Of a stretch of DNA of 64,000 bases, positions 9,601 through 62,812 are shown piece by piece. The notes below the pieces were generated by a model. The model saw only the letters and a program-made list of their open reading frames with translations, made no database searches and had not been told where the DNA came from. This DNA is from Cyanophora paradoxa CCMP329 (Eukaryota; Plantae; Glaucophyta), in NCBI GenBank assembly GCA_004431415.1, contig QPMI01000056.1, positions 248,001 through 312,000 of the forward strand, given 5' to 3'. A program made the translations under genes and the position numbers. Positions within the stretch are counted from its first letter, which is position 1. Each line of letters opens with the position of its first letter.

Positions 9601-9633
9601 AGCCCCCCCCAGCCCCCCAGCCCCCCCCCCCCA

Positions 9634-9664
<31 letters not shown>

Positions 9665-12439: not shown

Positions 12440-12699
12440 TACCGTGTAATACTTAATTACCGCGCTGACATAACTACTGCGCTACCATATAGCTGCGCTC
12501 AAAAATTTTTAGAACGCAGTAGTTTGGTAGCGCAGTATTAGTACTGTATTACCCCCTTTGCTAACAAATAACATGTTTTCGAGGCCATTATTACTGGAAG
12601 TCTGGAACGCAGTAATTTGGTAGCGCAGTAAAGCGCTAACCGGCGTAGAAGTTTTAGAACGCAGTAATTTGTGGCGCAGTAAACAAGTGTTACACGGTA
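12440..12699. mobile_element. Non-autonomous MITE (Tc1/mariner-pogo-like, TA target)
   Basis: TA-ccgtgtaatactt ... aagtgttacacgg-TA terminal inverted repeats (1 mismatch). Internal gcgcagtaa/actgcgc repeats. No ORF. Confidence 0.75.
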
Positions 12700-12920
12700 G
12701 CCTGTCAGGCTGTCAGCTAGCGCTGCGCAACTTGGCAAGTTTGCAACTCCCGAGTCCCGACTCTCCGAGTACTACGGTACGCGCAGCCAAACTTGAAAAC
12801 TCTAGTCTTGAATCAGATCTAGAAGAGAGCCGGATCAATATCTAGTTTCACGGCGGCGGTACATGTACAAGTACGTATACCGTAGTACTACGGTAACGAA
12901 TTCGAATATCGGATCATCGG

Positions 12921-28100: not shown

Positions 28101-31100
28101 ATAAAAGTCGAAAGCAATGCCGTCGCTCAAGACGGTAGAATTTCTGAGGCTGCACAAACGTGCATAAAGCGGCGTCAGGCAGCTGCAGGGTCAAAGTGCA
28201 CAGCGGATCCCGCATTGCAAGCGGCACCTAAGCGGCTCGGCAGTCTGGTCCACAAAGTCCGATCCCTACGCAAGACGAAAATTAATTTACGCGAAACGTA
28301 GAGTCTCGCGACGAGGTAGAGGCGCGCCTCGAGGGGTGCGGAGGCAGCGTCTTTGTAGATGGTGCAGCGCGCCATGCCGCCGATGCCCAAGCGCGTCGCG
28401 TTGCAGGCGATGGGGTTCGTCGAACGGACTTTAATGACAGAAATCTACCATATACATGAGATCAGTTTACATGAAATGAGGCTGTTTTGAATTCTGGGCG
28501 ACTCGTGCATACCGAAACGCCTTCGTCTATGTACGTGCGTGTGGCGACGAGGCCGGCATCGTAGTACGCCCGAACTACCGCCGAGCCAAGGGCTGTAGAC
28601 CGAACGGGGAAAGCGTAGCATTCCGAATCGTCCAGACTCAGACCCCGCGCGGCAACCGTCGATTCACCGAAGAAGTCAAGTACGTTTGTTCCGGACACGA
28701 GGAAGCCGCCGATGTCCTCGGGCATGGGCGTCGACCACGAGTTGTTACGGCAGACGCGGCATGTGATATCCATCGCGAGCCGCGTCCGCACCGCGGCACC
28801 AAAGGAGCCGGCAGGATCGCCGTCGCGCCGGCATTCTAGCTTGCCCGAGACATAAATGATATTCGTTGGGCTTGTCGTAGCAAGCGTGGTTGTGGACTCG
28901 TCGATGATGTCCGAGTAGGCAGCGGTGATTGTAGCGTCTTCGGAAATACAAATTGGCGAGTTCAGACTTGAAGAGCAAATAATTGAAATTATTACGCAGC
29001 TGAGCAAGCGTACCAGACAATGATTGCGAGACAGGAGGTGGGCTAAACTTGAAGCGGAGCACACGCACACCGCCAACGATTTCCTCAGTCGGTTCCGTAA
29101 CCTCACCAAGCGCACCGAAGTCGATGGTGAAGTCGCTTGAATTAAGCGCAGCGGAGCTACTCGAAGGCGTAAAGTCGCAGGTGAGATTCGTTCCTGGAAC
29201 GCGACGCCCGGGGTTCGTGCAGCTGAGAGATGCGTCGATGATGCTGACTTGCATGGTAGATACTGTGACATTGCGAATGCCATTGTCTGACGCAGAGACC
29301 GAGGTTCCAGACCAAACGATCTGCATGACATGGTTGGGTCGAAGAAAGAAGAGAGATTCATTCAGATCTAGAGACACAAAGCAAATATTCTAACCGCACC
29401 TGGAGCGAGTACTGACCGGCCTGTACCGCAGAGTGATCAATGTAAATAGTGGGCCAGTCGACCGACTTTATGTAGGCCGCGGACGGGGCGAGGAGCGCAA
29501 AATCATCCATTTGCAGAGGGCTGGAGGCTTCATCGGGATGAACAGCCTGGACGGTGCACGCTACTGGAGCGGATCGCGAGCGGCGGAGGGAATCGCATGT
29601 TGCGTTATGCTCGTCAATGATGTCGAAAGCGACGGATAGCGCCGAGTTTGCGGAGGCCGAAACGGCAGGGCCGTACAAGACGAGCAGCTCACATGGTGCA
29701 GCTCCGATGAGCCCTTGTGCGGTGAACTCAAACGTGAGCGTACCCGCCTCGGTGCCCGCAGAGAATCCGGAAACATTTGCGTCCGCAGACTCCGGCGACG
29801 CGCCGCAGGTCGTGCGATTAAAGCGGAGATCGGTTACAACAAGAGGTGCCGACCAGGCAGCCGGAAGAACAGAGCAGGTGACGGTCGTGCCCAACACCAC
29901 GCGACGGTTGCAAGTAATGCTGGATGTTTCCACAATTTCCACGAAAGCTGGCGACGACGAGCCTCCACCAAGGAGAGATGCCGTGATAGTCGTATTGCGT
30001 GAGCCTTTCGAGACGTAAACGATGCTCACGAGCGTTCCGTCGGCGCGCGACTCCCACGGCCCGAATTCAAGGGCTTCAGGCGTGCTTGTTGTGATGCCAA
30101 GGGCGACAACGGCGGGCAGCGGCACGCTCGAGCTGAGCACGCAGGTCATATTATTGCCGACGGCTATGCGCTTATCGCAGTTGAGGTTTGCGGCCATTTT
30201 GACGACGCTGACGTCAAATGGCACGACATGACCGCCGTCGGCCCAAGCGACCGAGATGCGCGACGGCTCTGCCAGCTCCAGAACGATGCAGCGACACGAA
30301 AAGCGGAAAAGGCCCGCCGACGCGTACTCCAGAGCGCCACAGTCTTGCGATACACCGTCCAGAACGAACGGTGCGCCAAAGACTGAGGTCGATGTCAGAG
30401 AAGCGCCGTGAGTCTGCTTCAATTCGCAGTTTGTCGTCTGATCGAATCCGACGGTGCTCAACGAGCAGGTGATGCTGAAGTCCACCGGTGCACTGCCCGT
30501 GTACACGGCTGTGTAGAGATCCTCACGACCCGCAATGGTCGACGAGTACAGGCCCTTGACCGAGAAGGCAGCTCCGTTTGCGCCTTGGAAGCCCGAAAGT
30601 GTGAAGTTGAACTGAGCAGGAATCAAATCAAGAGCTCGAGCGATCTCGATTCGTTTACGAGATTCAACAGTCCTATAGCTACATATGCCGTGCAAATGCG
30701 AGATAGAAACGCAAATACGAATGCGAACCTTGCCTGTGTCCGTCCATGCGGCGAACGATTCGGCAACAAGGCCCGCATTTGAAACGATGGGAGTCGTGGC
30801 GGAGAAGTCCGAGAGATCCAGATTGGAGGCGCCGGGTACAAGATGGCAGCGGGTCTGGCGCCGGCAGCGTTTGCACGTAAGTCCAACGAAAGCGGCTGAA
30901 TGTTTTAATTAGAATGCAAGGAAGCCGATTGAGCACCTCGCCAAACTTGTAGACCACGGGCGAGCACGTGACGGTAGCAGAGACGAGAGTAAGGTTGGTG
31001 CCCGGGCTCCGCACGTCGGCGGTGCCTGCAAGCTCCGCGCTCCACTTGGCCTGCACCGCCAATTCCGTGGGCAGCGAGGCCGACCCAACAGTGGCATTGA

Positions 31101-34100
31101 AGCCGAGTCCGTTACTAATCGTGGAAGACACGCTGATGGACGAGAACGAAATCCCCGATACGGCAATTGGCGTGACATCGGTTGCGCGGAGCTCCAGTGA
31201 CTCGCCAGCGGTTGCGAGTGTGCATCGCACGACCGAGCCAGAGGCAGCTCGGCTCCGGTCGCAGTTTGGCGCATCCAGAACCAAATGCACAACGTCCATA
31301 GAAAAGGCAGCGACTGGCTCATCGTCAGTAACCGTGTGCGTCGCCGCCCAACTGCGTGATAGAAATTGGTGTCCTATACCTCGCACGCTACACTTAAATG
31401 AAAGGATGGAGTACGCACTGCCCGGTTATAGCGTTCAATAGGTACTGACTCGATTCAGCGACCTTAGAGTCGAGCTGGATAGTCATCTGGCCGTTTGAAA
31501 CGGCTGGATTGGTTCCTGCTGAGTCCTTTGCAATTCTGTCCAACGGTATCTCATGCATGTGAGGCCCAAAAGAGGATGAAGAGTTTGCGCTTCGCACCGC
31601 TCGGTGTTTCCCCACACAAGACCCGCCGGAGCATCTTCAATATTCATATCGGCAATCGCCCCAGAGGGCCCCCACTGCGCTCGCCATGGCCAAGTTAGAT
31701 TCGAGAAATGCGCTTTTCGCTGATTAGAAATCAAGGGAATATTGTACTGTACTACATCGTCAAATGTAATCTCATATGCACACCTTGACCGTCAGAGCGA
31801 CAGAGCCGCCAGCTCCCTGCACGGATTTTGAATCGAGCCGATCAACCGCGCGTTCAGTTTAGTGGGATATTGCAACGTTTCATAATTGGGAATCGCTCAC
31901 CGCAGCAACTCTGCAAGCACCGCCGCTCGTCATTGAGGGGCACGTGTTCTCTGTAACTCGTTGAATAGTCGTAAGTGGTTGATTAGGATTAATCGCCGGT
32001 AACGCTGTGCACAGCTGTCAAGAACAAATTTCTGGTGATGGCGAACGAGACAAACGGCGCTCACTTCGGTCCAGTTTATACTGAACAAGAAGCTGAATTT
32101 GCTGCGACGCGTCGGAACCTATCCTCAGTTTCATGAGGACTCTTCCTGTCTCCGTTGCGTCTTCAGCGGACGTCGGTTCCATGTATGGATTAAGGATGAG
32201 CGAGTATGGGGCATCCGAAGGGATGACAAAGTCTCGGGCGCGGATCCAGGTTCCAGCCACCTACGTAGTTGGCCATTGAGTGGCCAGCCATTTAATGATA
32301 ACGAGCACCGCCTGTGCTTCACGCACCGGAGAGATGGCGATTATGACTGAACCGCCGACGACAAATTTGCCGTCGGCAGTGGGGTTCGGGTCCACAATTG
32401 CAATTGTTGCAGATGCCTCAAAGACGCGGAACGCGAAGCCACCAATGAGCGTCTGAGAACGCGGAACGAATATTTAATGCCATGCAACGATGGCGCTAGC
32501 CATATGTAGCATGCGCAGCAGGCCACGGGCAAGGCGCTGACCGTGTGTCGTGACTCGCGGGCATACCAATTCCGGCCCCGGTTGTAATCTTCATTGAGGC
32601 GGCTGTCATAATATGTATCATCGGCGCCTTCGGCAGTGATCGCGGCCGGCAAAACCCCCGTGTACTCAGTAAGACCGATGGAGTCGTCTGTATACAGGGC
32701 CGGATCGTAGAAGAGCCCCTGGAGGAAGGCGTTCAAGGCTTATCGATGATAAAACCTTTGTTCAACTTGACAGACTCACCCCAGACTTTTCATGTGACCA
32801 GCCAACCTTCACGAGCTCGTAGGGCCATGGCGTGTTCTCGGCATTGCAGCCGTAATACCTTTCGTCCGTGCACTTCGGCGTGTCTGAAGGAGTGGCTCGG
32901 AGGCCAGTAATGGAGAGTGTGGCACACGAGCCGCCGGGGACAGCCTCAGAGGTGAGACTCCAGTCAAGAGCCTTGCCCGAGCCGCCTCCCACAATGACGT
33001 CAAGATAGGTGTCGGGGATAATGGTGGCGCTGTTGTCCTTGGCGCAAATCCTGCCAGCGCGTCAACATTAACGTTAACGGTCTCAATGCGACTGAAATGC
33101 ATTGAGACTCTAGAACTCGATACTTTATAAATATAAGTAGTCGGGTCGCGCACTTGACTGGGATTGTAGAACCTTTAGGAATAGCAATCGTTCTCGTCTG
33201 ATCCCTACCGTCATTTCGATGTGTATTTGGCCAACCGTAGACGAGAGTTCTGAAAACATAGGTTTCCGTGCTTGTTCCATACGCATTCAGGTAGCTGTCT
33301 GGAATGCGAACATCGGCATCCACAACCTCAATGCTGAGAGTCTTGATAAACTGCTGATCCGTCGGGAAATTGATAAACCTACGACCAACCATTAATATTA
33401 GTATACGCATATATATCAGCTCAGCACTGCGCCGTGTCTCCAAAAAAATACCCGCGAAAAAATCAAAAACAAATCAGAAAACAAACCATTCCCAGTAACC
33501 CAATCTTGAATATCAGTAAATCTCAGTAAGCCTCAGTAAGAAACATTGAATTAATCGAAGTTATATCATAATCTCGATTAATTATATCTTATCGAAGTTA
33601 TATCTTTTTTATGCGCCGTGTCTCCAAAACAATTCCCAAGAAAAACAAACCATTCACAGTAACCCAATTCCAAATCTCACTAAATCTCAGTAAGCCTCAG
33701 TAACAAAAATCGAATTAATCGAAGTTATATCTTAAATCTTATTTATCGAAGTTATATCATAATCTCGATTAATTATATTTAATCGAAGTTATATCCTTTT
33801 CATCCGCCGTGTCTCCCATGAATAACTAAGTAAGTTTAGTTAAAACCTCGAAAGAAAACCTCTCATTTTTTACTGTATTTTTTGAACGATTTTTTACTGT
33901 ATTTGTTACACTAGAAACAACAATAGAAACGACAATAAAAACAATAGAATTTTAATTGTTTCTGAATCGTATATACGTCAATATATCACTGTAATATATA
34001 TCATATATATCATAGGAAATCGATTTATAGTCAAACCTATAACATATCAATTTGTGTATATGTGATATATATTCATATATGACGTCATGATGATGATGTA

Positions 34101-37100
34101 TATGTATCTGATATATATGACACACCGGCTTATTCGGGAGATCATGACGATCACGGCGATGTGTATATTGTCATGATGTATATGTATATATGTGTGACGC
34201 AATCTGATTGGTGTGCTATTTGTTTTGTTGTATCCCCCTTCAACTTCTCCCCAGGTTTATATCACAGATAACATCTCAGATAATACCTCAGATAATACCT
34301 CAGATAATACCTCAGATTATATCTCAGATAATACCTCAGATTATATCTCAGATAATACCTCATATATTAATTTTAAATTTGCTGGCTTCTGATTGGTTCA
34401 TGTCACAGAGTAGGGACTTTTCATCAAATGCGCCATAAAATGCGCCATAAAATGCGCCATAAAATGCGCCATTAAATGCGCCATTAAATGCGCCATTAAA
34501 TGCGCCATGAAAACCCGGGGAATAAACCATAGTAGGGTATATGATCTCACGGTTCAAGTTTCGCTCACGTTTCACCGAAGTTTCGGTAAATCGATTATCG
34601 GCATCTTCAAACGCTTGTATCTCATCACCAGATTATGATCTCGCAACGTTCTGCATATCGGTTTGAAGCGCTGTTTAAGCTCTACGCAACTGTGCAATCC
34701 CCACAGTATTTCAAGCTACCTTATTATACAACATTTCTCAAAAATCGACCTTTTACACACTGATTGTGGTCATTTCTCGCTGAATCCGAGCCATCTGACT
34801 CCTTTTAATTGCTTTTCTCTTCACAAACTTCTTAAAGCCCTTTATATCATCATCAGTGAGTACTGCTCTATCAGTATAGGTCTTGATATCATAACCTTGC
34901 AGGCTAGCTATGACAGTTTGGTAATTATAACCCCATAGTCTATGCAATTCCTTGTAGGTCTTCTTATCCAAACCACCATTGTACTCATCAAAGGCGCAAT
35001 TGAACTCTTTCTCGTTCCCAAGAATATTGAAAAATACAACGAACTCCACATTGCGACGAATGGTAGTAGAAATAGAACACAAACGCTGAACATTAAAGAT
35101 TACCGAGATTGAATAATGTCTTCCACTCGTTACTAATTTAGATAACACAGCCGAATTATGCATATCCAAATTTGAACCTATCATGTCATCGAGTATGATA
35201 ACTAGGTTATTTCGCTTTTCGTTATTCTCAATTCGTTTCTTTTGCATACTGATCAATCTCAAAACAATGTTATCATCCCACTCTTCATAGATGTTATCGG
35301 GATGGGTGATGTCATTGAATTGTCCAGTAAAAGCTGTTGAACTAAATATAACGATTTGATCGATCTTGTCACGAAGCTCGTAAAGTAAGTATTTTGTGAA
35401 CATTGTCTTACCTGTATTGGAGCGACCAACATTCAAAATTCTTGTCGGGATTCGAACCGTCTTACTCGGATCGAACTCCGGAATATCATCAAGATTTACT
35501 GTGTTATCCATTACAGTAATAAGATAAAAACAAAATAAAGTACACACCTACAAATAATTGCGCTTCCTACACTAACAAAAGAAAAGAACTTTAGAAGTTC
35601 GAGACTTTCAGGGTAGAGATGTTGTAGCCATTAAGTACCATAACATTGTGTCGGAGGGCATAGATATCAACCTGAACAGGAGCGGCATCAGTGCATCCGG
35701 AAACAGTGAGATCCATGTAACTCGAGCTGCTGTTGAAGAAATCCTGGTAACCCATAACCGAGTTCCGAAGCGAATCTTTTCCAGACTTGGAAAGAACAAT
35801 TCCGTAAACATTTCCAGACTCGAATCCGTACGTGGTATTGCCCACAGTAACACCCTTGTAGTGAGAAGGAATGTGATTGACAGCAGAGAGGAAACCGGAA
35901 ATGGGTTTGTTAGATATATCCAGGGAGCGATTGTTGTGGAAGATCTGGAACTGATCAATCTTAACAGCAGATTCATGACCGCAGAAATCCGAGTGAGTGT
36001 AGGTGTTAAGTTTGTTCACCTCTCGAACAGTCATCAGAATCGAGTGAACCAGACCAGAAACATTAGCGAGTGTAACCTCAACAGATTCACCAGCATCAGC
36101 GGTTTTGAGCGCTCGGGTCTTCTTGTGAATGACCTCTGTGATCGGGATGCGAATGCCACCTTGTTCGTTCGCCATTTTAAGGAGTGTCTCAGCCTCAGCC
36201 GAAGCAATGTTTACGAATTGGCAGATCAGAGAGCAATCCGCAAAGGTTACAGATCCACCAGCCGGAACTTGGACAATCGCAGCATCACGGAAATCAACCT
36301 CGATTGTTGGCATATCGGCTAGCGTACATAATGGGAAATAAGCTTCTTCCAGAAAGCAGCGGGGATTCTAACGATGTATTCCATTGCTTCATCTGTGCTT
36401 TCACGATCTGTCTCTTTGAAGTAACCGAGAGAAGCATACATGCTGCTCATGGTAGCGTGATCATTATCGACCAGGGCGTTTACAGTGATCCAATCACCAG
36501 GGATAATATACTTGAAACCACCATGAACGAAACGGACCTCATTAATAAAAGAAGAACCACCATTGGGAGGGTGCAGGCTACACCACCACCAGTGGCAATC
36601 TTGAAATAGAGCGAAACACCAGCAAGGAGTTGCTTGCGAGGTAGATCAAAGTAAGCGGTATTCTTGAAGCCAAAAGTGTTGCCCGGGGACGAACTTGCTC
36701 GAGGAATGGTTTGTATTTGGGGTTGGTTCCGATTTGGAGACCAGGGGAAAGATAAATTTGATCGGAACCGGGAGTTACGAGGAGTTCCTTCAGGGTAGTT
36801 CCAGTGAGTGCCATCTCTTATGTTTAAAATACCAAAAGAAATTTTAAAATGCTTTATTAAACAGAATGACGCGTTACTATCTCAATATTGATTCCAGGAC
36901 CGATCGGATGGAACCCCAACTAATTTCACATACAGACTCCCTTATGCGATCCAAAAGGTCAGAGCCTGTCGAGTAACGAACTTTGAGATGTTTCACAATC
37001 TTTACAACCTCTCTGAAGTAGGAACCCTCACCACACAAACACTCGATAATGCTGGGAACCCAAAGAATAGAAACAACGAAGTCCTCCGAGGTGCATATAC

Positions 37101-40100
37101 ACCGGATTCACTGGTGAATTATCTGATCGCTCGCATTGGATCCCAGCCCTATAATCAAGCGGGTGGCGGAACTTACACTCGCCATTTCTATGTAACCTAT
37201 GATCCCACAACATTGCTTCTAAGGTTCATGTGTGAGGTTCCATTCTCAATCACTATGAACACTCAACTCTTAGCCAATTTCTGTGGTTTTGAAAATGCTA
37301 ACACACTGTACCAATCGAGTCCTCTATCATCTAATGTCACAGTTGGAGCCTTTACTTATGCTCACTACATTGATAGTGAAATGCCATTAGATCTACTATT
37401 TAATTCCTATTTGCTTCTTCATGTTGATCCACTGAAAGGAAGATATGTGAGCAATAACAAACGAGATAACAATGCTATCGCGAAAATTGAGATTGACCAA
37501 ACGGTTGGCAGTCTATTAAAATATGATTCATCGAATAATTCCATGATCGTTCACGAGCAGAATGGCTTGGTTGAGGTTGAGACTCTAGATGTGAGACTTT
37601 CTTACTGGAATGGAGCCACAGCAGACATTACTACCGACTGGTCGATGACTCTTGAACTGATTACTGAAGATGATAAAGATCTGACGAAAAAAGCATTGAA
37701 GAATGTCATAAAAGAGTTGGAGGGACTCTACCTGCCGTTCTCACGGTCATAGGAAATACTGTAGAATAAATTTGTTTCAATATTACAAATGGCTCGCAAG
37801 ACTCAACCCAAGAATTTCTTAGCCAAACCAGCCGCTGAAGCGGATGTTGGCAATGGTGAGAATGGAAGGAACTGGTATAAGAAATCGAAAGGACTCGCTG
37901 CATACGGAACTGGTGACCTCGAAAAGGAAGTCCATAAAGAACGAAACCAATTCACCCAAGCCACTACGAAAAACAGTAATGATGATAATGCCCTTGTTGA
38001 CCAAGTCCCACTGAACCGCATGCCCGGAGCCAAACGAGGAATCAAGAAAGGACAGTTCAAATCATCCACAAAGGACAAGGTTGCCTCATCATCGACACTG
38101 CTGAAACTGCTTGATGGTGGTGAGCGACTCTACTCAACCTATTCCGAGAAAGACCATCGCAACCGCTACTTTATTCGTTCAACCACTGGTGGACTGAAAT
38201 CTGTAACATATCAGTATGCTAAGAGTCTTGTTGATGGTATTGCAGCAGAGACCAAAAACGAAAACAAGATCAAGGAACAGCCAATCACAAAGGAAAAGGT
38301 TGAGAAGAAACCAGAAGTAACCCATGAAGTTATTCCCGAACCTGTTCATGTGGCAAAAGACTCACCTACAGAATTGATTGCAAAGACCATTGAGTATCAA
38401 GACTCCAACAAAACGGATTTGCCGGTTCTCAATAAGTCGATCCTTCGGGTTGCCACTTCGCAGGCTGATCCAGTCAACTCGATTCCAAATGCTGCCCCAA
38501 TGGTCTCTGGATTCGCCAAGCTTGGTATAAGACCCGGTTATCGCCGTTAAGGATCAATCTGAATAATATAATTTCTCAAACATTGTTAGCGCTACGTAAC
38601 CAATCCTATCCCGTAGGCTCAAAACTTCTTCATTTTTATGGAGGCGTTGTAGAGCGAAGTGAAATATCCATAGGTAAATCACTTTAATCACCTGTTCTAC
38701 CGGGTTCAGTGGTAGAAACTTGCAGCCGACAAGTGAACCTTCTGGGTATCGGTGGCTTTATCATTTTTCCAGCATCTTCTTTCGTACTGGATGCTCTGCA
38801 ATCGGGACCAAAATTTGACAGGAGTTTATTCGCTATATACAGACAGAAAAACTACTTAAAGATTTCTTAACATATATTAAGAGAGTAGAAAAGGACAACA
38901 TGCCAATCAGTGAGGCTCAGAAGCGTGCTACTTATCGTTATCGTAAAACTGAAAAAGGTCAGGAATATTTGAAAAAGTACAATGCCAGATTTGCAAAGCA
39001 AATGCGTGACTTATACCATACTGATGAGTGTTACAGAGCCATGAAGATCGTTGAGAGTTCCCAGCGTCTCTATGCTTCCAATGCAGTCTGCTTTGTGAAG
39101 TATCTCTATGGTGTCCCGTATTCTAACCGTGGTCGCAAATCGAAATATCTCTGTTAATCGTTTTTCTCAGCGCGATCTGCTCTGAGAAACCCGTGGGAAA
39201 CGCGCTGGAACCACAAATATAATCATTCTGTTATTTTTAGAGTTCGATGATCGAGCCAACCCTTTGTTATTTTTATGAATGCCCTCGACTAAATTTATTT
39301 TGTTGGAGACTTTTGGTTTTGTCGGTAAAATTTGACGCGAGTATAAAAGTATTTAAAGAAAACTTTTGTAGGTTTTTTTTGCAAAAGCCCAACCGGGCAA
39401 TGTTCGTATTAAGGACAACAACCGCCGCCCCGTCGGTGACGTCGACCGGGGGGGCGCCTAGGCTAGCGCAAATGCTCTGCGGCATAGAAGGAAGACGTCC
39501 TGCTATCTTATCCTAGCTGTGAGCTATCGATCTACAGCTTTAGGAGGGCCTGATGCGTTGGTGTCCTTGGCCCTGTGGAAGAGAGGGGGGAGGGGGAGGC
39601 GAGGCGCACGGGGTGCTGGGGGTCGGCGGGGGCGAGGCGTAGGGAGGGGAGAAGGGCAGGGAGTGGGGTACACGGAGCGCTGGAGGGTGGCGGGGTGAGG
39701 CGCTGGGGTCGGGGAGCTGGGGGCGGGCGGGCGGGGCGGGCGGGGAGGGTGACGGGCCGGGAGCGGGGCGGGGCGCCGAGGGTCGGGGCAGGGCGCTAGA
39801 GGGCGGCGGGGGCGGGGCGCTGGGGGCGGCGGGGGCGGGGCGCTGGGGGGCCGGGGCAAAGGGCGGGGGCTAAGGGGTGGAGGAGCACTGGGGGCGGGGC
39901 CCTGGGGAAGCGGCGGCGGAAGGGCGCTGGGGGCGGAGGGGCGCCGGGGGCGACGGGGGAAGGGCACGGGGAGCAGCGGGGCACTAGGGCGGCGGGGCGC
40001 TGAGAGGGGTGACGTGGGAAGGGCACTGGGGGGCGGCGGGGCGCTGGGGCGACGGGGAAGGGCGCGAGGGAGCGGCGGGGCGCTAGGGCGGCGGGGCACT

Positions 40101-43100
40101 TAGAGGGTGGCGGGGGCGGGGCGCTGGAGCCGGAGGGCGGGGGCGGGCGCTGGAGCTGGGGGCGGGGCGGGCGCTGGAGCCGGAGGGCGGGGCGGGCGCT
40201 GGAGCTGGGGGCGGGGCGGGCGCTGGAGCTGGGGGCGGGGCGGGGCGCTGGAGCCGGAGGCGGGGGCGGGGCGCTGGAGCTGGGGGCGGGGCGGGGCGCT
40301 GGAGCTGGGGGCGGGGCGGGGCGCTGGAGCCGGAGGGCGGGGGCGGGGCGCTGGAGCCGGAGGGCGGGGGCGGGCGCTGGAGCTGGGGGCGGGGCGGGGC
40401 GCTGGAGCTGGGGGCGGGGGCGGGCGCTGGAGCCGGAGGCGGGGGCGGGGCGCTGGAGCCGGAGGCGGGGGCGGGGCGCTGGAGCCGGAGGCGGGGCGGG
40501 GCGCTGGAGCCGGAGGCGGGGCGGGGCGCTGGAGCCGGAGGGCGGGGGCGGGGCGCTGGAGCTGGGGGCGGGGGCGGGGCGCTGGAGCTGGGGGGCGGGG
40601 CGGGGCGCTGGAGCCGGAGGGCGGGGCGGGCGCTGGAGCTGGGGGGCGGGGGCGGGCGCTGGGTGGGGGCGGGGCGGGCGCTGGAGCTGGGGGCGGGGGC
40701 GGGGCGCTGGAGCTGGGGGGCGGGGGCGGGGCGCTGGAGCCGGAGGGCGGGGGCGGGGCGCTGGAGCCGGAGGGCGGGGGCGGGGCGCTGGAGCCGGAGG
40801 GCGGGGGCGGGGCGCTGAAGCGGGAGGGCAGGGGCCGGCTTGAAGGCCGGGTCCGGGCGGGCCTCGTCTGGCTCGGACTGCGGACGGGGGGGCAGGGGGT
40901 CCGAGCGTACACGCTTCTGTACCGGCCTCGGGGGGGGAGGAGTCCAGGTGGGCGCCCTTTGGGCCCAGTCCGGGGGAAAGGGGGCGGGGGCGTGGGCCCG
41001 CGGGGCCTGGGCGCCGGCGAGCGTCGCGCAAGCACGGTCTACGTCGTTCGCCGGGCATGGCGGCGACATCCGGTGTGTCGTCCGTGGATGATCGGCTCAT
41101 GTCTGCGGTGTGACAGGCAGTGAGTGAGTGTCAGCATCGGGGCGCAATGCGCGGGGACTGGGCGGCAGTTCAGTTGCTTAAGAGCTCTTATCGTCTATCG
41201 GGAGAGGCAGGGCGATTGCTTTGCGCTCCGCGCAGGGCGCAGGTGGGGTCCGGGGGTCCGTGGAATTCAAAAAAGATGACGCGGCGAGGTTGGCGGGGCT
41301 GCCTGGCGCTCCGGGGCGGGCTACCGACTTCGGCGGTTGCGATTGGTGATGATGTGCTCGTGTCGGCTGTCCGTGCACGCCCGGCTGGTCTATCTAGCGC
41401 GTTCTGGCTACGGGGGTCGGGTGGAGCTGGCGCGCGACTTTCCGAGCAGCTTGACACGCAGCGTTATCAGGAACCCACGGGTGGGAAACCTGGCCCGCTG
41501 CGCCGCCGTAATCGTCGCGCTACCGTAAATTTTCCGTACCCCCCCTTCCAAAACTTTTGTAGGTATATATTAATAGAGTGAACAAAGAAATGCCTCGACC
41601 AAGTAATCGAATTTCGAAAAATTTGCAGGATGAGATTCTTGGCTACTACATGCAAGCAAAAGTAGAAGACAAATTGACCCGAGAGCAGGATATCTATTTC
41701 TTGAGAGAATTTACTTTCAAAGCAATTAGAATTCCAAAGTTGATTGATATCAGAGATACACTGAGAGGTATCGTAGAGCCTCGTTTGTATCGCAAGCAGG
41801 AGAAGAAGGAGAAGAGGGCTGAGAGAGCCGCTAAGAATGTTGAGAAGCAAAACAAGAAAGCGGAGCAAGCGAGAGAGCGGAAGCGCTTGACTCCTTTCCA
41901 GCAGATGATTGCTAACCTCCGTGAGTTTGTTGAAAACTCACCTGGAAACATGGTCACCCTGAATGTGAGACTCTTCCGTGAGTTGCAAGAGGGAGAACAA
42001 GCCCCTGCAAATGCAAACAGGGTCACTGAGAATGGTGTGACCTACATTGAATCGAAGAGGCTTCGGAACAATCGCCCCTTTGGTATCCAGTGTACCAAGG
42101 CAGCTTTTCTGAATGCTCTCGGTCTGGTTCAATCCACCTTCAATACGTTCCCATGTGTTGAGGGGACTGTCATTGCTGAATTTATTGCAGCAGTTATTGA
42201 GTTTAACTCGACCAATCAAGATTTCCGCTACCTAAAACTAATTGAGCAAGATACCTACCCCGATATTATGACAATTGAAAGAGTCATCACGACAGATAAT
42301 GAAGAATACATCCCAAGAAATGAACAAGTCCTCAGAGACAATACAAACGCTCCAATGATTATTTCGAATTTCATTAAAAACGAAGGGAACCCCCAAGCCA
42401 CCACATTCAAGGAAATGTTCTTGAAAGGTGATTCATTCAAGGTTGGAAGTGTGTTTTCGATGTCCTCATCAAATGGTTTGGAGGAGCGTTTGAGAAGGCT
42501 AAGACCAAAGGGAAATACAAGCGAATCGATTGGTCTTACAACGGACTCTTTAAGATGGTGAATGGGCGAGACCCTGTTGAAGGAGATGATTGGGGCATTT
42601 CTTTCAAGTCCATTTCGGAGAAGGTTCTTGACCCACTGCGCCTAGGCATGGTTACAATTGGAAAGGACGACAGAACCCCTGTCCCTGAACTGACTTTCCT
42701 GCCCAAGACCAGGAACACACACTTGACCCCTTCTGTTGCATATGTGAAGATTGAGAATGGTCACATGTATTTGTTAAATCACAATATTAAGGCTCTCACA
42801 CAGTCCTTCAATGGCTCCAAGCCAAAAGATACCAATGTTCCACTCAGTTCTCGTTACAAGATTATAAAGCAAAGAAGGTTCAAGGAGTTTGCCACAAATC
42901 CCGATGACATTCTGAGAATTGTCAGGTCTGACAATTCAAAGAACCAATCGAGCATTCGAATCTGCTATGGTGGTTCACTGGATGAACTACTCAGAGAGTT
43001 CATTGTGGTGCATAATTATCAGGTCCAACCTGGGTTCTCCCAAATCGGAAAGGCAACCCATATTCGTTTCACTATTGACGATAAGGATGTTGTCGTGACC

Positions 43101-46100
43101 CCACCTGGTAACGATACAGATGTGGAAACAGCTTTCGAGATTAGCTTCAAGAATGCTGAGTACAGAGATAAATTCGAGAAACTAAATCTGGATATGTATA
43201 GGTCTCTAATCAACACTTCCAACAAGAGTACTTACAATGAGCAAACCATAAATGCATTCAAGAATGGAGTGCAGACTGCCCTTCGTGGTCTCTTTGATGT
43301 GGATGAGGAGACCTTTGATGAAATTCGCTATAACACAGATATTTACGAGTTCGATATGTGCAAAGCATACCCTTACATTGTAGCCTTGATGATCAAATTC
43401 GTTCCTGTTCTCAGCAAGTTCGATGTCTTCAAGAGTGTGACAATCACAGATGCAGAGCAAATCGAGGAATACAGCTTCTATTACGTGAAACTGGACGACA
43501 AATACTTTTTCAAAGCCAAAGACAAGAACGGAAAGGAGTACGAAGCAAACACCTACAACAGATACAAGAGGATGATCATTGATTCCAAGTACAATGTCGT
43601 TCCTGGTTTGGTTCTCAAAAAGCATTTCGAGGATTTCAAGGATGACATCTCCATCAAAGCGGTTCTGCGACCTTACAAACTCATTCCCAACCTTGCAGGC
43701 AACACAGTTGCTCGAATCTTAGATAGCGACCTCGATCCTGTTGATAAGAAGCAGATCTTGGTGAGTGCAATTGGGCAAACTGGAAAGCAACGAAATAGCA
43801 GAGTGAAAACCACCATTTTCCACAACAGAGACGATGCGATCGAGTTCCAGAAACAGAACGGAGGGGAGGTTAAAATTTACCTCTTTGGTGAGACTCTTGC
43901 CACTTATGAGGAGACAGAGTTCGTTCTGTGTGAGGAAGAGATGACCGAACCCCATATCTACTATGTCAATCAGGTAGCAGAAAAGCAGCTCATTGATGGC
44001 TTCATGCCATTGTACACTACCCTCTTGTCAATTATGAGGATGTGTATGTATGAGAAGTGTGTCGAACTCGCTAAACAGCAGATCCGACCACTCGCTTTGA
44101 ACACCGATTGTGTTTATGGGATCGCTTATGAACCCATTGCCCCAGTGTCATTCGATCGCAATGCCTTTGAGAATATTGGAAAATTCAGTGTGAAATGCTG
44201 CCCCAATTTTTCTAAAAAGTTTTCAGGTGAGAAGAAAGACCTCGAGGCAAAACGAATTCGTTACGGAAAGTTTGAGAGAGCGACTGACTTTGTGAAAATC
44301 GAGAACTACAGTTATACCAAACACTCTGTGGTTGATGAGTATGACACAACCGCGATTTGTGATTTGCTGGCTACACAAAAACGATGGGTTCTTCTCGGAT
44401 CAGTTCCAGGAGTTGGAAAGACTCACATGACAGTTGAATATGGGAAGCGTTTCAAAAATCCCCTCTATATTGTTCCGACCAACAAGCGAGTGAAGGAAAT
44501 GAAAGAGCAAGGATTGAAAAATGTGAAGACAATCTATGATGCCCTTCATCTCAAAATCGATGAGTCGAACATGGATGAAATCGTAGGAGGGAATGCATCT
44601 GGTTTGGTAGAATTTGATTGCATTGTTATTGATGAGATCTGTCAGTTTAAGATTGGAGAACTGGCAGCCCTGGACCACATCATGAATGAGCAGTTCCCAG
44701 ATAAGGTATACATTGCCACAGGTGACCCGTATCAGAACCCACCCATTCAGGATATGAGTGTTGATCAAGATGAGTATTACCTTGATATCCTCCATCGCCT
44801 GTTCCCCAACGAATTGTTACTCCAAGTGAACAAGCGCCATGAGACTGAGGAAGATCGCAGAAAGGTTGAGCAAATTCGAATTGATTTATTCGAGAAAGGT
44901 TTGAGTGTAAGTGAGGTCCTAGCAAAGTACGGTTCAAGGTTGTGGACGAATTGGCAAAGACAGATAAAGGCATTGTGTATACAAACCGCAAGGGTGCAGA
45001 GGTGAACCTAGCCCTTCACAAAATGAACTACGGGGATAATGTTTCCATTTATGCTGGCGGGATCAAAGTTGTTGCAAAGACTCGTATTGCAAAGGGTGGG
45101 AAGATAGTTCATAATGGATTTGTCTACAAGATTGTCAAGCTCTCAAAGGACAGTTTCATTATTGCTGACATTGCCAACAAGAAGGATGAGATTGTTCTCA
45201 GCAGGGATGCAGTCAAACATTTCGCCCTGGCTTACGCAAACACCTGCCATGTTGTTCAAGGTGATACGATTCGCTGCAAAGGGAACAGGGTAGTCGTGTT
45301 CGAAACTGGGGCGCCATTTGTTTCAAAGAAGTGGCTATATGTTGCTCTCACTCGAACCACAAGGCTGGATGATGTTGTTATTTACCATGATAATTTCGAA
45401 ATGGCTCACTGGAAAGTGTGGAAAAGAGAGAATAACGAGAAGATTTCGACTTACAAGGATCAGGACCGAGCAGCAAACAGACAATTCGATGAGCATGATT
45501 ACATCACATGGGATTGGATCAAGCAGCGATATGGGAAGCAGTATGGGCATTGCCTGCGATGCTACAATGCCATGGACTTTGAAGATATTTCGGTAGATCG
45601 AATTAATAATGCTGTGGCTCACATTACCAAAAATTGTTTCCTCTCTCATATTAAGTGTAACTGTGCCGCCCAATAATGGATAGTGTATTATCATTCAAAA
45701 AGTATAGGCAGAAACTGATTAATGAAAAAGTGAGTTTTGATGAAAAAGAGTTGAAAAAGAAGTTCAAAAACTCAGAACTCCAGCAAATTTACAAGAAACC
45801 AAGGAAACCCAAATCGTTTCTTCGCATAGTGGCAAAGCCTAGATCGTTTCAAATCGATATAACATATTTCAGAGGGTTTCAGACTGCCAACAATGGCATT
45901 TTCAAAATGCTTAGTTTCGTAGACATACTTAGTCGCAAAGGATTTGTTTATCCTTTTAAAAACAGCAGTGAGATCCGAGCATTTTAAATAGGTTCAAGCA
46001 AGAAGCAGGCAAAGTTAATGCTCTCTCTGGGGATAATGAGTTTTCCCAGGCAGTATACCGAAATTGGTGCAGTGAACATGGTGTAATGCTATACACAGAT

Positions 46101-49100
46101 GTGGCAAAGGATGACCACATCACAGTAGGAGATAAACTGGGGATAATTGATAGGTTCACTAGGACTTTCAAACAGTATCTCAGAAAATCGATGACAGCAA
46201 AGGGAACCACGAAATGGATCGATCTACTTAGTGATGTAATTGACTTGTATAATAGCAGTCCCCATTCTGCATTGAAAAATGACTCTCCAAATGCAGTGTA
46301 TACAAATGAAGATAAACAGTTATTTATTTACATGAGGGATACTGTTCACAACAATCGTGTAAAGGAGGCTGATACTAATCAAGTGAAACCAGGAGACACA
46401 GTTCGAGTTTTGCAACCAAAGGGATTGTTTGAAAAAGAAGGTGCGCAATTCAGTCAGAAGGTCTACACTGTTGCAAAGGCTGATAGGAATCGTTTCAAAG
46501 TGCTTGAAGATAATGATGGTGAGGAAACAAAAGAAGTGAAGAGGAGATTTAAGAAACAAGAATTGCAAAAGGTGAATAAAGATGATATCATTAAGATACC
46601 ATCACAAAAACGGATTCAGCAGGTTAATAAAACGAATAAAGTGAATCGATTGGTAGCAAAAGAAGGCATAAAACCCAATCGGAGTAATGTAATTCGGAGG
46701 AGATACAATTTGAGAAGTGGTTTAACGAAACGCTAAATCATGGAGACACGGCGGATGAAAAGGATATAACTTCGATTAAATATAATTAATCGAGATTATG
46801 ATATAACTTCGATAAATAAGATTTAAGATATAACTTCGATTAATTCGATTTTTGTTACTGAGGCTTACTGAGATTTAGTGAGATTTGGAATTGGGTTACT
46901 GTGAATGGTTTGTTTTTCTTGGGAATTGTTTTGGAGACACGGCGCATAAAAAAGATATAACTTCGATAAGATATAATTAATCGAGATTATGATATAACTT
47001 CGATTAATTCAATGTTTCTTACTGAGGCTTACTGAGATTTACTGATATTCAAGATTGGGTTACTGGGAATGGTTTGTTTTCTGATTTGTTTTTGATTTTT
47101 TCGCGGGTATTTTTTTGGAGACACGGCGCAGTGATCAATATTCACAGCATCCAGATTAAATAATATATATAGATCACAAACCGGAGGCTAAAGTTGAAGA
47201 CAGGAGACATAGGATCGTTCCCTACAGAAAGCATTGCAGTTTGCTATCAAGCGCATGCGCGCGCTCAGTCAACAGGACATATGCACATGTACAAATTCGC
47301 GCTCGAGCGCGCGTAGCGCACCCTGGTACGTGCCGCGCGCCCTTGGATCCACTGGCAGGAAAACCAGTCAGCATACGCAGAGAAGAGCTGAAAGACATGA
47401 CCAAAGCTGGGCGTGGCAGGAACCTCGATATTGAGCCCTCGTCCCTCCCCCGACAGGTCGTCTCCAAGGGAAGAAACGACGTCAACGTTTCTGAGCTTGG
47501 TTTGGTCGAGTTTTCGCTGAACTTCGCAGCGATCTTCCTCTCCCTCCCCGAAAACCATGCGTTTGCAGTTGACGTAGCTGTCTTCATAGTAGATCTCTCG
47601 AAGGTCTGTCCGTCGCGATATTCAAAGAAGGTTCTTTCTAAATTTGTAATATGCGTCAGCGGATTCGAACCTGTGGCATAAATTCCCTCGCTTGTTTCCG
47701 TCATGTATAGGTCGCAGCGGGCCTTGTACGACCCGGCAGCAAGAACGCGCGGCGTGCAGGTAATTTTCGAAGTGTCATCCAGCGTCAAAAAGCTGAACTG
47801 GAAGGGCGTCTGCCCTGTCTTCTGCGTGCCGACACGCGCGTATCCTGAGACCTCCGTCGGTTTGCCGACGTCATAGTTAATTTTGATGCCCATGTCGGTG
47901 CGTGTGCTGGTCGGGTTGCTCGGCGCAGTATAGCTGCGCGTGGGAGAATGTAAATATCGGCAGATATCTGCGGAGACCTAGATATATCTGGCATGCGCAC
48001 GTAAAGGCATAGGTGTCATAGCATCCAGTGGAGCATATTTCAGTGCCGTCGGTTCTGGCTTGGAATGGCTCAGGATATCCGTCCGGTACCAGAGGCGAAA
48101 GAGTTCCAAGCGCGGGCGGCTCAATCAAGAAGTTGCTCTCCGCCAGGCGCGGACTCCGCGAGTGGCGAGTCAGCGTGCAACGAACCAGTGCACCCGCTGC
48201 ACAATGCGGCAGATGCCTTAAATTAGCGATCGCCTGGAGAGCGAATGCATCTAAAAGAACTCGAGAAAGCGCACGACGAGTGCGGTATACGCCGTCAGCG
48301 CCTTGGGACGGGTTATAGATGTACGGAAAGTCGCCTGATCGTAGCCACATTAATCAGGTGCGAACAAAGATATGATAAGCAAACAGTGGTACTGCAGCCG
48401 GCTCACAGTTCACATTGTAGTCAAGGAACGATTGGAAGGTAGCGTTCCAGAGTGTGCGCACAATGTTCTCCCGCTTCTCGTCGCGGAAGCCAATTGGGAC
48501 CGCAAGTATTGGGACAAGTAGTCTTTAAGCTGCTTAAGCTTTGCTCGTTTCAGCCAAGTCATGCTCATGATACATATTCCCACTAGACGTCGACGGCCAC
48601 GTACACAGATGATTATAAAATTTCATAAGAGACTGCAGCCGCGCGCACCCGAACGTTATAGGAGCTGTCGTGACCGTCGGTCGCAACCTGCAAATGCACT
48701 TTAGACCATTTAGACATGCAGGCAGATCTTCAAATTGCTTTCTAATACATCATCAAAACCGTAACAGAGAACTGGCCATCCAATAAGAAGCTGTGTTCGT
48801 GCTCGTGTCCCTTCGAGCTCTGTTCCCGATGTACATCTTTGCGCTGCCCTCGGAGCCATGGCCAGTATCTTCGAGCTCTGTAATGTTGAAGGGCTCGGCT
48901 GCCGCGATAGCATCAGTCATGATTAATTCTCTATATATAACTAAGACAACAAAGTTCCGCGGCTAGTCCACGTTATCTTGGGAAACGCACTGATTGCAAC
49001 GAAGTCCATCTCATAGTCGTTGAATTCCACGTAATCAGATTCGGCAGCAGGTTCTACAAATACATTAGAACTCAAATAAATGTTAAACTGCTGCTGCCGA

Positions 49101-61092: not shown

Positions 61093-61340
61093 TACCGTGT
61101 AACACTTAATTAATGCGCCAGAAATTAATGCGTTTTTGGACCCGGACCCCTAGTGTGGATATAAATGCGGCACCAAATTAATGCGTTTTGAAGCTTTCTG
61201 TCTGCGTTAGGGGGGTACATCATGGCATACCGCAGTTTTCTTAGCGTTTCGATCGCGATATTAATGTGGTCCCGAATTAATGCGTTTTGCCAGCGAAAAC
61301 GCATTAATTACGGGGCGCATTACTTAAGTTTTACACGGTA
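61093..61340. mobile_element. MITE with 25-bp TIRs and TA target duplication
   Basis: TA-ccgtgtaacacttaattaatgcgcc ... ggcgcattacttaagttttacacgg-TA (2 mismatches). Internal aattaatgcg repeats. Confidence 0.85.
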
Positions 61341-62540
61341 CTACTAGTAGTACACTGCCGCAGCTAGCCTAGTAGCCTACTAGGCTAGTAGCTATAGCGC
61401 TGCAGACTGCACTGTCACAGTGTCACTGCAGTGCTTCCAAGTTCCGAAGTTCCAGCCAGTGCCAGCACTGCCAGGATGCACGCTCAGCGGCTACACTACT
61501 ACTGCAGTACAAGTTACTGTAGGACGGCTTTTTTAGCCGTAGTTTTAAATTGCCGTAAAGTTTGGGTTCGCCCGACTTCGTCGTAGCTAGTAGAGATCCA
61601 TCCCATGATTATCATCAATGATTCATCATAGCATGATCATGACTCATGATTCATGACATGTACTATATTAGCTAGCCCCATGATGATGGCATGCCATGAT
61701 GATGACAGTCACAGACTCTGAGATAGCGCGGCTTAGCGCTAGCGGCTGTCAGTGCCTGTCACTAGCCTGTCACTGCTGTCAGTGCCCCATCAATGGGGCC
61801 ATCATGGCATGCTACTACTACGTATATACTGTAGCCTGTAGGTGTAGTTATTTAGCCGTTGCGTTTGCGAGTTGGCGATTCCCCACTGGGCCAGCAGCAT
61901 CGGCCAATCAAGGAGTAAAGCTTTTTGAGAGTGATTCGAATTCGGGTAATATTCAAGACCCCAAAATAATTAGTAATCCTGGGGCTCGGCCTGTTTAGTT
62001 ACCTTTAGTAGCCTAGTAGCCTAGTAATAAAACTTTAGTACCTCGGGTTTAGTAATAAGTAGCCTAGTAGCCTACCTCGGGTTTAGTATACGATAAAACT
62101 TTAGTAATCGGGCCTCCGATCCAGATCTAGAACGTAGAACTATAAAAATCCAGTATACAAAATATTTCCCGACTTACAGTAGGCTACTGCAGCAGTACTA
62201 GTACTAGTACAGTAGTAGTACTGCCGAATCATGGCCGATTCGATCCCAGAGCCCCGTTGCTGCAAGCCTAGGCTGCCTAGCAACTTGGCAACTTGCTGGC
62301 AAACGTTTTTTTTAACTTGCCAAGTTGCTGCCCAACTTCAGCACTGCGGCAGCCGAGTCGACGTCTGCGGAGCTAGGCCTGCGGACCCAGGCTGCGGTGC
62401 CCCAGGGGCCAGACTGGCAGACTAGTGGCAGTCACCCGGTGACCAGTGCCACGCTGGCACGGTGAGTCACCAATGACTCACCAGTGAGTCACCACTGACT
62501 CGCCACTGATCATGAGTCACCAGCCTGACACCAGGCCTAC

Positions 62541-62812
62541 TACCGTGTGGCACTAAAATACCGCGGCATAAATTACCGCGTTAGAAACTCCGGCCCGAGG
62601 GTGGCCAAAATACCGCGGTACCAAATTACCGCGTTTTAAAAAACTGGAGGCTTGTATGGGGCGGTAATATTAATTAGGGGGGGTACTGTATAAAGCGACT
62701 TGCCTGCAGCTTAATACCGCGGTACCAAATTACCGCGTTTTAATAAATTCTCGGCGCGGTAATTTGGTACCGCGGTAATTAAGTGGGCGCGGTATTATAG
62801 TGCCACACGGTA
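62541..62812. mobile_element. MITE with 23-bp TIRs and TA target duplication
   Basis: TA-ccgtgtggcactaaaataccgcg ... cgcggtattatagtgccacacgg-TA (1 mismatch). Internal aaattaccgcg repeats. Confidence 0.85.

What the first reader, a model, noticed from the sequence alone, without database searches (positions are those of the whole stretch)
33425..47133. Complete, apparently young endogenous Polinton-like virus with an atypical gene set
Seen: near-identical 397-bp TIRs; ATPase, MCP, penton, rve integrase and PolB-helicase fusion; no standalone adenain-like maturation protease ORF. Established: canonical Polintons and virophages encode that protease, whereas PLVs generally lack it. Inference: a compact seven-gene PLV lineage with an rve integrase, possibly still able to reactivate.
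Basis: partly seen in the sequence, partly recalled or inferred. Interest (0 to 1): 0.85.

Follow-up and report, generated by a model that had tools for sequence, protein, structure and literature searches.

The report
Compact algal endogenous Polinton-like virus
A 13.7-kb integrated DNA virus with seven genes and near-perfect inverted ends sits in a host gene of what is likely a glaucophyte alga; it is likely one of about 20 near-identical young copies, its gene set matches the known Tlr1 type, and its capsid family is already listed, though unnamed, in a published survey.

Summary
The element is real. Its inverted repeats are 397/396 nt and differ by one base. It has seven genes: A32 ATPase, double jelly-roll capsid, likely penton, two unknown ORFs, a PolB-palm/SF1-helicase fusion and an rve-type integrase. 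No gap could hold an adenain protease. Seven frameshifts are likely long-read errors, because short-read contigs carry one extra base at each. Depth suggests roughly 13-21 near-identical copies. The gene set is not atypical: Tlr1 elements have the same core. A capsid about 98% identical is in the supplement of Bellas et al. 2023, from Cyanophora paradoxa, where 366 capsid genes fall in two unnamed clusters. What stays open is a deeply divergent capsid lineage with no close relatives in the databases searched, which I found described nowhere. One run, only guessed to be RNA, holds very deep contigs of a sister subfamily's capsid and ATPase. Verdict: new member of a known kind.

The parts
33425..33821 (.). 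Left terminal inverted repeat, 397 nt, with internal 94-nt and 27-nt sub-repeats. The true end probably lies 6-7 nt further out, at 33418 or 33419 (inferred).
   Evidence: contig boundaries
33822..34752 (.). Non-coding AT-rich spacer with two 12-nt tandem arrays (34265-34366, 34422-34512), variable between copies; possibly an origin or regulatory region (inferred)
   Evidence: joints; longest stop-free stretch 90 aa; no Rfam match near a gathering score
34753..35511 (-). A32-like genome-packaging ATPase, 252 aa, intact
   Evidence: Pfam PF04665 E 1.1e-15; single homologue at 31% identity
35591..36814 (-). [quoted passage not shown]
   Evidence: a named copy in PMC10120064 Table S2 reads through all three breaks; table 4
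36866..37752 (+). Likely minor capsid (penton) protein, about 295 aa, one break near 36896, divergent from the MCP
   Evidence: Atlas 0.97, weak by its own recognition mark; position; table 4
37789..38550 (+). 253-aa basic ORF with no cysteine and no family; likely a virion core or DNA-binding protein (guess)
38900..39157 (+). 85-aa basic ORF, no family; likely a small DNA-binding regulator (guess). It shares an upstream AT-rich motif with the replicase gene.
39374..41549 (-). Nested insert, 77% GC, with a 25-nt tandem array, bounded by a 15-bp direct repeat (39359-39373 / 41550-41564) and a T run; likely a non-autonomous non-LTR retroelement. Not part of the virus.
   Evidence: contigs that run across the empty site appear as loose ends at 39373 and 41550; no Pfam match for its two Pro-rich frames
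41590..45676 (+). Replicase, about 1,360 aa in three pieces (breaks near 42444, 44930): N-terminal domain, likely vOTU (Cys near 42450, His near 42762), PolB palm motifs A, B, C (about 43350, 43750, 44100), SF1 helicase, C-terminal HNH-like Cys/His finger
   Evidence: architecture as in PMC5499653 and 10.1101/2024.03.18.585575; table 4
45676..46736 (+). rve-type (DDE) integrase, about 353 aa, one break near 45974
   Evidence: rve_3 E 0.002-0.004, below cut-off; motifs; table 4
46738..47133 (.). Right terminal inverted repeat, 396 nt; probably lacks the outermost 6-7 nt (inferred)
19170..33424 (-). Host flank: downstream part of a very large intron-rich gene with a REJ domain and a membrane segment; the element likely sits in one of its AT-rich introns
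   Evidence: PF02010 REJ E 4e-6; acceptor near 33379 with 126 aa open after it, donor uncertain, 68% AT

Best explanation
This is an integrated Polinton-like DNA virus with a Tlr1-type gene set, likely one of about 20 recently spread near-identical copies in a host that is likely the glaucophyte alga Cyanophora, and its family is predicted to replicate by protein priming, integrate through its rve integrase and package into double jelly-roll capsids. Shown: the TIRs, the AT-rich gene block, the ATPase and helicase families, both host junctions, and the multi-copy depth. Inferred, by analogy with Tlr1-type replicases: the replicase primes at the genome ends with an N-terminal terminal-protein domain, frees it with its own vOTU protease, and copies the linear genome with the palm domain and fused SF1 helicase, without a proofreading exonuclease. 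The integrase inserts the linear DNA into AT-rich host sites, here likely an intron. The A32 ATPase fills a capsid of MCP and penton that needs no maturation protease. The seven frameshifts are likely long-read errors, so the family is likely coding-intact. This particular copy is likely handicapped in cis, by a clipped right terminus and a retroelement-like insert 25 nt upstream of the replicase start. Most likely lifestyle, untested: a latent provirus woken by a co-infecting giant virus (about 45%), against spread as a transposon only (30%) or helper-free nuclear infection (25%).
For: TIRs and GC drop. Unique host contigs bridge the left junction in 3 of 3 DNA-like runs laid (32600-33446, 0 differences) and the right junction in 2 of 2 (47104-47900). 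Replicase and integrase contigs have word depth 426-446 against a flank of 21.3 in X1, and 885-1124 against 66-75 in X3. One 2,666-nt contig differs from the window by only 2-3 substitutions and one 1,761-nt contig by none. Each of the 7 coding breaks has a 1-base insertion in short-read contigs. Of 11 such insertions that I picked, 10 lengthen a run of two or more identical bases, where chance per event is 0.18. A published copy, 292 of 299 residues identical by eye, reads through the three MCP breaks and has an HHpred match to an ascovirus MCP at 97%. The AlphaFold model of homologue P0001 matches PBCV-1 and iridovirus MCPs (Foldseek E 6e-15; VIA-align Z 17.4, rmsd 4.6, 296 aligned). The replicase length, motif order and motif C lacking its first Asp match Tlr1-type proteins, which are predicted to be active polymerases.
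Against: The window's own MCP was not modelled; only a homologue was, at mean pLDDT 50.5. The PolB region folded alone failed (pLDDT 31.7) and has no profile match, so palm, vOTU and HNH rest on motifs read by eye. The integrase match is below Pfam's cut-off. Contigs drop rare variants, so breaks private to this one copy cannot be excluded. The insertion at the 36683 break is shown in X2 and part of X3 but not in X1. Summed word depth is not a copy number. No 5-6-bp target-site duplication exists, only a 4-bp match if the left end is moved 6 nt out. The host species is inferred from one published homologue. No virion, free genome or helper virus is shown.
Confidence: 0.85

Rival explanations
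1. The family spreads inside the genome as a self-copying transposon (replicase plus integrase); the capsid genes are passengers and no virions are made.
For: About 13-21 near-identical replicase and integrase copies fit a burst of intragenomic copying. No close relative was found in 8 of 8 IMG/VR scans or 2 of 2 metagenome scans. PMC10120064 leaves replication by transposition open.
Against: The MCP, penton and ATPase frames are open in the short-read majority. That paper counts 366 MCP genes in the likely host. Run X20 holds deep contigs of a sister subfamily's ATPase and MCP.
Confidence: 0.3
2. This copy is a decaying pseudo-provirus: the seven frameshifts are real mutations and the element is dead.
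For: Seven breaks in four genes, a nested insert and an apparently clipped right end. The published sister MCP is itself out of frame after residue 299. The host flanks show no such indels.
Against: All breaks are one-base losses, almost all in runs of identical bases, with nearly no substitutions beside them and TIRs otherwise identical. Real decay would add substitutions. Clean flanks with errors inside a multi-copy repeat is the failure of polishing described in PMC10120064 section 7.
Confidence: 0.15
3. Much of the excess depth comes from free linear viral genomes in the cultures, so the family is replicating without induction.
For: A 159-nt contig of depth 1,428 in X3 ends exactly at the TIR terminus. 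The copies collapse into long, near-identical contigs.
Against: A contig also stops there if many different flanks follow. Hundreds of integrated MCP genes are published for the likely host. The depth ratio is similar in X1 and X3, sequenced five years apart.
Confidence: 0.1

Closest known systems
Tlr1 elements of Tetrahymena thermophila and other PLVs with pPolB-SF1 helicase ('Tlr1-like') replicases
   Same: MCP, mCP, packaging ATPase, RVE integrase, N-terminal pDNAP palm fused to a C-terminal SF1 helicase in a 1,000-1,400-aa protein, no maturation protease, TIRs, tens of copies per genome (PMC5499653; PMC4028283; 10.1101/2024.03.18.585575).
   Different: The C-terminal finger looks HNH-like, as in the other PLVs, not GIY-YIG as in Tlr1. 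Only about 11.5 kb and seven genes. Different host group. In PMC10120064 Table S4 the likely host's MCPs fall in two unnamed 'new' clusters (21 and 29 by my column count), not the cluster labelled Tlr. I built no tree.
Cyanophora paradoxa endogenous MCP clusters in Bellas et al. 2023 (PMC10120064 supplement)
   Same: One listed MCP is 292 of 299 residues identical by eye to the window's four pieces. Others resemble homologue P0001. 366 MCPs in two clusters of 272 and 94.
   Different: The main text has 0 occurrences of 'Cyanophora' or 'glaucophyt', and in the parts I read the clusters carry no name, gene map or description. Dataset S1 and the cut part of the table file were not seen and may hold maps.
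NCLDV-like PLV groups (Zoravirus VC102, VC218, Zephyrvirus) of Bellas and Sommaruga 2026 (10.64898/2026.06.19.733378)
   Same: NCLDV-like capsid; RVE is common in Zora and VC218; PolB-SF1 fusions occur in Zephyr members.
   Different: Those genomes are mostly 20-30 kb (VC40 15-20 kb) and often carry Mriya48 or HUH, for which there is no room here unless the 253-aa ORF is one. Their HMMs could not be run. NCLDV-like folds are also the norm for most PLV capsids, so the resemblance does not place the element.
Canonical Polintons/Mavericks (Polintoviricetes) and mavirus-like virophages (EMALEs)
   Same: TIRs, rve integrase, PolB-family replicase. GC-rich retroelements nested in AT-rich proviruses are known from EMALEs and cryptophyte PLVs.
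   Different: No adenain protease, no clean 5-6-bp duplication, and a helicase fused to the palm. The homologue's model is closer to NCLDV capsids (Z 17.4) than to Sputnik or mavirus (Z 10.7, 10.5). The nested insert has a 15-bp duplication and T run and no reverse transcriptase, unlike Ngaro.

Membership tests
Polinton-like viruses (operational group) | [quoted passage not shown] | tested here: met
   Homologue P0001 (E 2e-8 to the window piece) models as a DJR; Atlas 0.97 to Capsid_NCLDV clusters (recognition low); published HHpred on a 98% identical copy. The window's own protein was not folded.
Polinton-like viruses (operational group) | A32-like packaging ATPase | tested here: met
   PF04665 E 1.1e-15, 58.2 bits against cut-off 22.8
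Polinton-like viruses (operational group) | [quoted passage not shown] | tested here: inconclusive
   Atlas 0.97 with viral clusters, including one V18/19 cluster, recognition under the tool's mark; no Pfam or PHROG match; not folded
Polinton-like viruses (operational group) | Linear genome with long TIRs and no maturation protease | tested here: met
Tlr1-type PLVs | N-terminal pPolB palm fused to a C-terminal SF1 helicase, 1,000-1,400 aa | tested here: inconclusive
   Helicase met by profile; length about 1,360 aa and motifs A, B, C in order; the palm was not confirmed by profile or fold
Tlr1-type PLVs | RVE integrase and no protease | tested here: met
   rve_3 E 0.002-0.004, sub-threshold, plus motifs; no protease
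Tlr1-type PLVs | MCP and ATPase in the Tlr clade | not tested
   No Tlr sequence was held and no tree was built. The published clustering puts the likely host's MCPs outside the Tlr cluster.
Polintoviricetes (canonical Polintons, Gosseviruses) | Adenain-like cysteine protease gene | tested here: not met
   No unassigned stop-free stretch above 90 aa; the 253-aa ORF lacks Cys
Polintoviricetes (canonical Polintons, Gosseviruses) | 5-6-bp target-site duplication | tested here: not met
   None at the TIR ends; only 4-bp matches with shifted ends. This may reflect damage to this copy.
Virophaviricetes (virophages) | Virophage-type MCP plus cysteine protease | tested here: not met
   No protease; the homologue's model ranks NCLDV capsids above Sputnik and mavirus
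NCLDV-like PLVs (Zora, VC218, Zephyr) | Match to the group's MCP HMMs and ATPase clade; Mriya48 or HUH | not testable with these tools
Active (virion-forming) PLV | Particles or free genomes on induction | not testable with these tools
   Needs bench work; the X20 contigs are a lead only

The most novel reading that the evidence does not exclude
The element represents an unnamed, glaucophyte-associated lineage of minimal (about 11.5 kb, seven-gene) DNA viruses that join a Tlr1-type replicase and integrase to a deeply branching NCLDV-like capsid. The family is still active: a sister subfamily is strongly expressed or amplified in at least one culture (run X20). That would make a standard laboratory alga a ready source of glaucophyte virions and a pointer to an unknown helper giant virus.
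Probability: 0.3. Interest if true: 0.72.

Novelty: new member of a known kind. Interest (0 to 1): 0.4.

Why it matters
Endogenous PLVs are common in protists and this gene set is known, so the element changes no principle. Its value is practical. It is among the smallest PLV-type genomes (about 11.5 kb, against the 14-40 kb quoted in PMC12220804). It is recently amplified and likely coding-intact, in a cultured alga for which five literature searches returned no description of such a virus. That makes two open questions testable in one system: whether Tlr1-type PolB-helicase fusions are working polymerases, which is predicted but unproven in the papers read, and whether such proviruses need a giant-virus helper. 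The capsid and ATPase have almost no detectable relatives, so they would add a deep branch to trees that link PLVs and giant viruses.

Tried and rejected
No whole genome is held for this window, so other copies could not be read directly.

Homologue searches. The MCP piece found none among 404 candidates. The ATPase found 1 among 250. The four-sequence MCP profile returned only two of its own members among 7,997 candidates. All 8 viral-contig scans and both metagenome scans gave no locus; these patterns reach close relatives only. PDB sequence searches gave nothing meaningful. tblastn against phages gave one weak helicase match.

Folds and profiles. The single-sequence fold of the PolB region failed and was not searched. 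BLASTP of two N-terminal MCP pieces against P0001 was weak (E 0.43 and 0.002). Pfam found nothing for the vOTU, palm or HNH candidates. P0003 was dropped as a plant lectin repeat. The weak Pfam hits named Tox-REase-9 and scorpion toxin on the integrase piece, and the Rfam mir-81 hit on a tandem array, are far below cut-off and were treated as chance.

Expression. No RNA holder is listed on record. X20 and X22 are only guessed to be RNA. X20 has no cover in the 3 left and 3 right host-flank bins and none over much of the replicase and penton. X22 has cover in 10 of 30 bins of the right half. Such holes prove nothing.

Ideas rejected. An early idea that the element sits inside a larger endogenous giant virus was dropped: the flanks are a host REJ-domain gene. 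The host intron model is not settled; the script flagged two possible donors. Three look-ups of earlier scan findings were empty.
Full report
Observation. The element spans 33425-47133 (13,709 bp). Its arms are 392 nt and fully complementary without gaps, and 397/396 nt with one 1-base gap. GC is 0.40-0.41 in the viral parts and 0.53-0.56 in the flanks. Unique host contigs run across the left junction with no difference in X1, X2 and X3 and across the right junction in X1 and X3, the two DNA-like runs laid there. The insertion is therefore real and not an assembly chimera. It lies in a very large host gene on the minus strand that has a REJ domain, likely in an AT-rich intron (acceptor near 33379, donor uncertain).

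Genes. There are seven. The ATPase (34753-35511) is an intact Pox_A32 member. The MCP (35591-36814) is in four frame pieces. Its longest piece has 4 hits among 1.84 billion representatives, of which three are credible (E 2e-8, 4e-8, 6e-4) and one is a plant lectin repeat. I folded homologue P0001 with a four-row alignment that included the window piece (mean pLDDT 50.5). The model matches PBCV-1, iridovirus and faustovirus capsids best (Foldseek E 6e-15; VIA-align Z 17.4, rmsd 4.6, 296 aligned), then PRD1, Sputnik and mavirus (Z 10.5-11.2). The penton call rests on Atlas features and position. The replicase (41590-45676, about 1,360 aa) has an SF1 helicase by profile. By motif reading only, it has a Cys and a His about 105 residues apart upstream, PolB motifs A, B and C with the first Asp of motif C replaced, and a C-terminal HNH-like finger (the motif labels are from my own knowledge and). 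A single-sequence fold of the palm region failed. The integrase has a sub-threshold rve_3 match. Two basic ORFs (253 and 85 aa) have no family. No gap can hold an adenain protease.

Breaks. Four genes carry seven frameshifts. Short-read contigs have one extra base at each; at 36683 this is shown for X2 and part of X3 but not X1. I picked 11 single-base insertions: 6 of the 12 rows shown, where 17 more were hidden, and 5 of 7 rows. The rows left out were TIR variants, a compensating pair, a 3-base insertion and an alternative at the same site. Ten of the 11 lengthen a run of two or more identical bases, against a chance of 0.18 per event. Substitutions are nearly absent: 2-3 in a 2,666-nt contig and none in a 1,761-nt contig. 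This is the pattern of long-read deletions left unpolished in a multi-copy repeat, a failure described in PMC10120064 section 7. It is an inference, since contigs drop rare variants.

Copy number and age. Replicase and integrase contigs have word depth about 20-21 times the flank in X1 and 13-17 times in X3. The structural half is deeper and more varied. The tool warns that depth is not a copy number, so 'about 20 near-identical copies plus more distant relatives' is rough. Identical TIRs and long collapsed contigs support recent spread.

First, 39374-41549 is a 77% GC insert bounded by a 15-bp direct repeat with a T run at one end. Contigs that run across the empty site exist (loose ends at 39373 and 41550). 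It is likely a non-autonomous non-LTR retroelement. It lies 25 nt upstream of the replicase start, but an AT-rich motif shared with the 85-aa gene stays next to that start. Without it the virus is about 11.5 kb. Nested GC-rich retroelements are known from EMALEs and cryptophyte PLVs. Second, there is no target-site duplication at the TIR ends. The unique left contig ends at 33446, which for 31-letter words means 33417-33424 is shared with another locus. An X20 contig with a different flank matches from 33418. The unique right contig starts at 47104, so no other end shares even one flanking base. The simplest reading is that the true terminus has 6-7 more bases and this copy's right end has lost them; moving the left end to 33419 gives a 4-bp duplication. 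This is inferred from contig boundaries only.

How it likely works. By analogy with 10.1101/2024.03.18.585575 section 9, the replicase would prime at the termini with a terminal-protein domain, release it with vOTU, and copy the genome with palm plus helicase. The integrase would insert the linear DNA; the ATPase would package it into MCP/penton capsids without proteolytic maturation. None of these steps is shown here. Several cultured PLVs depend on giant viruses, which makes helper-dependent reactivation the leading guess (about 45%), ahead of transposon-only spread and helper-free infection. Run X20, only guessed to be RNA and holding 0.06 of the sampled words, has contigs of a more distant relative over the ATPase and MCP at summed word depth of about 10,000 (13,073 and 9,752 in two bins), and cover on the integrase and helicase end. 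Only 9 of its 63 laid contigs are 99% alike or better. The tool cannot rank genes or prove transcription, so this is a lead for expression or amplification of a sister subfamily, not of this copy.

Comparison with what is known. Tlr1 elements have MCP, mCP, ATPase, RVE integrase, a pDNAP-SF1 fusion and no protease, at about 30 copies per genome (PMC5499653; PMC4028283). The gene set is therefore a known one. The supplement of PMC10120064 lists a Cyanophora paradoxa MCP that I count by eye as 292 of 299 residues identical to the four window pieces. It reads through all three breaks and was matched by HHpred to an ascovirus MCP. Table S4 gives that species 366 MCPs in two clusters labelled 'new' and unnamed. 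I infer the host species from this alone. PMC8502044 notes adintovirus-like PolB and integrase variants in the same species. The NCLDV-like fold does not place the element, because most PLV capsids model closer to NCLDV capsids. The NCLDV-like groups of 10.64898/2026.06.19.733378 share some traits but their profiles could not be run. Replicase and capsid modules reassort freely in this virus group (10.64898/2026.10.13.758929). The Oxyrrhis fusion has the opposite domain order (PMC12721341).

What I saw of each paper. PMC10120064: passages, section 7, part 3 of 7 of the text, search hits and parts 1 and 28 of supplementary file 2, which is cut; Dataset S1 not seen. 10.64898/2026.06.19.733378: parts 1-3 of 5. 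10.64898/2026.10.13.758929: parts 1-4 of 5. PMC5499653: parts 1-3 of 5. 10.1101/2024.03.18.585575: passages and section 9. PMC8502044: passages and section 10. PMC12220804, PMC12721341, PMC8547959, PMC4028283: passages. Supplements of the bioRxiv papers are closed and may already classify this family. 'Not described' rests on searches.

Verdict. A real, young, compact endogenous PLV. It is a new member of a known kind, already counted in a published survey but apparently never described. Interest 0.40, carried by its small size, its isolated capsid lineage and the testable hint of activity.

Noticed in passing
window 39374-41549: GC-rich nested insert with a 15-bp duplication, T run and 25-nt tandem array. 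Its far end is multi-copy and is covered in run X22 (depth 95-215). Likely an undescribed non-autonomous retroelement family of the host.
   Followed up: partly
window 33417-33424 and 47134-47140: Seven to eight bases outside the left TIR are shared with other loci while the right end shares none, suggesting a longer true terminus and a clipped right end.
   Followed up: partly
window 34930-37026, run X20: Contigs of a divergent family member at summed word depth near 10,000 over the ATPase and MCP in a run guessed to be RNA.
   Followed up: partly
window 11578-12700 and 61093-62815: Two related AT-richer elements with sub-terminal repeated motifs and inverted arms (72% over 222 nt; 88% over 42 nt inverted); likely non-autonomous DNA transposons of the host.
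   Followed up: no
window 19170-33424 and 47134-58200, minus strand: Very large intron-rich host gene with many repeated beta-rich modules, a REJ domain, a GPS-like motif (label recalled) and one membrane segment; polycystin-like. The virus likely interrupts one of its introns.
   Followed up: partly
window 38870-38899 and 41560-41589: A shared AT-rich motif lies 10-30 nt upstream of the 85-aa gene and the replicase gene; possibly an early promoter. Two instances only, no statistics.
   Followed up: no
window 7000-10000, plus strand: Host AAA ATPase gene with C-rich introns (AAA_lid_3 E 5e-9); a 90-nt piece is repeated at 17432-17521.
   Followed up: no
window 13269-14030, plus strand: Host ORF with a Cys-rich part followed by Ser-Pro repeats, like an algal wall glycoprotein (label recalled).
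   Followed up: no
P0001, P0002, P0004: Three singleton MCP homologues from unnamed assemblies. P0001 resembles other MCPs listed for the same alga in the published table; P0004 lies on a 15.5-kb contig that may be a whole related virus but could not be fetched.
   Followed up: partly
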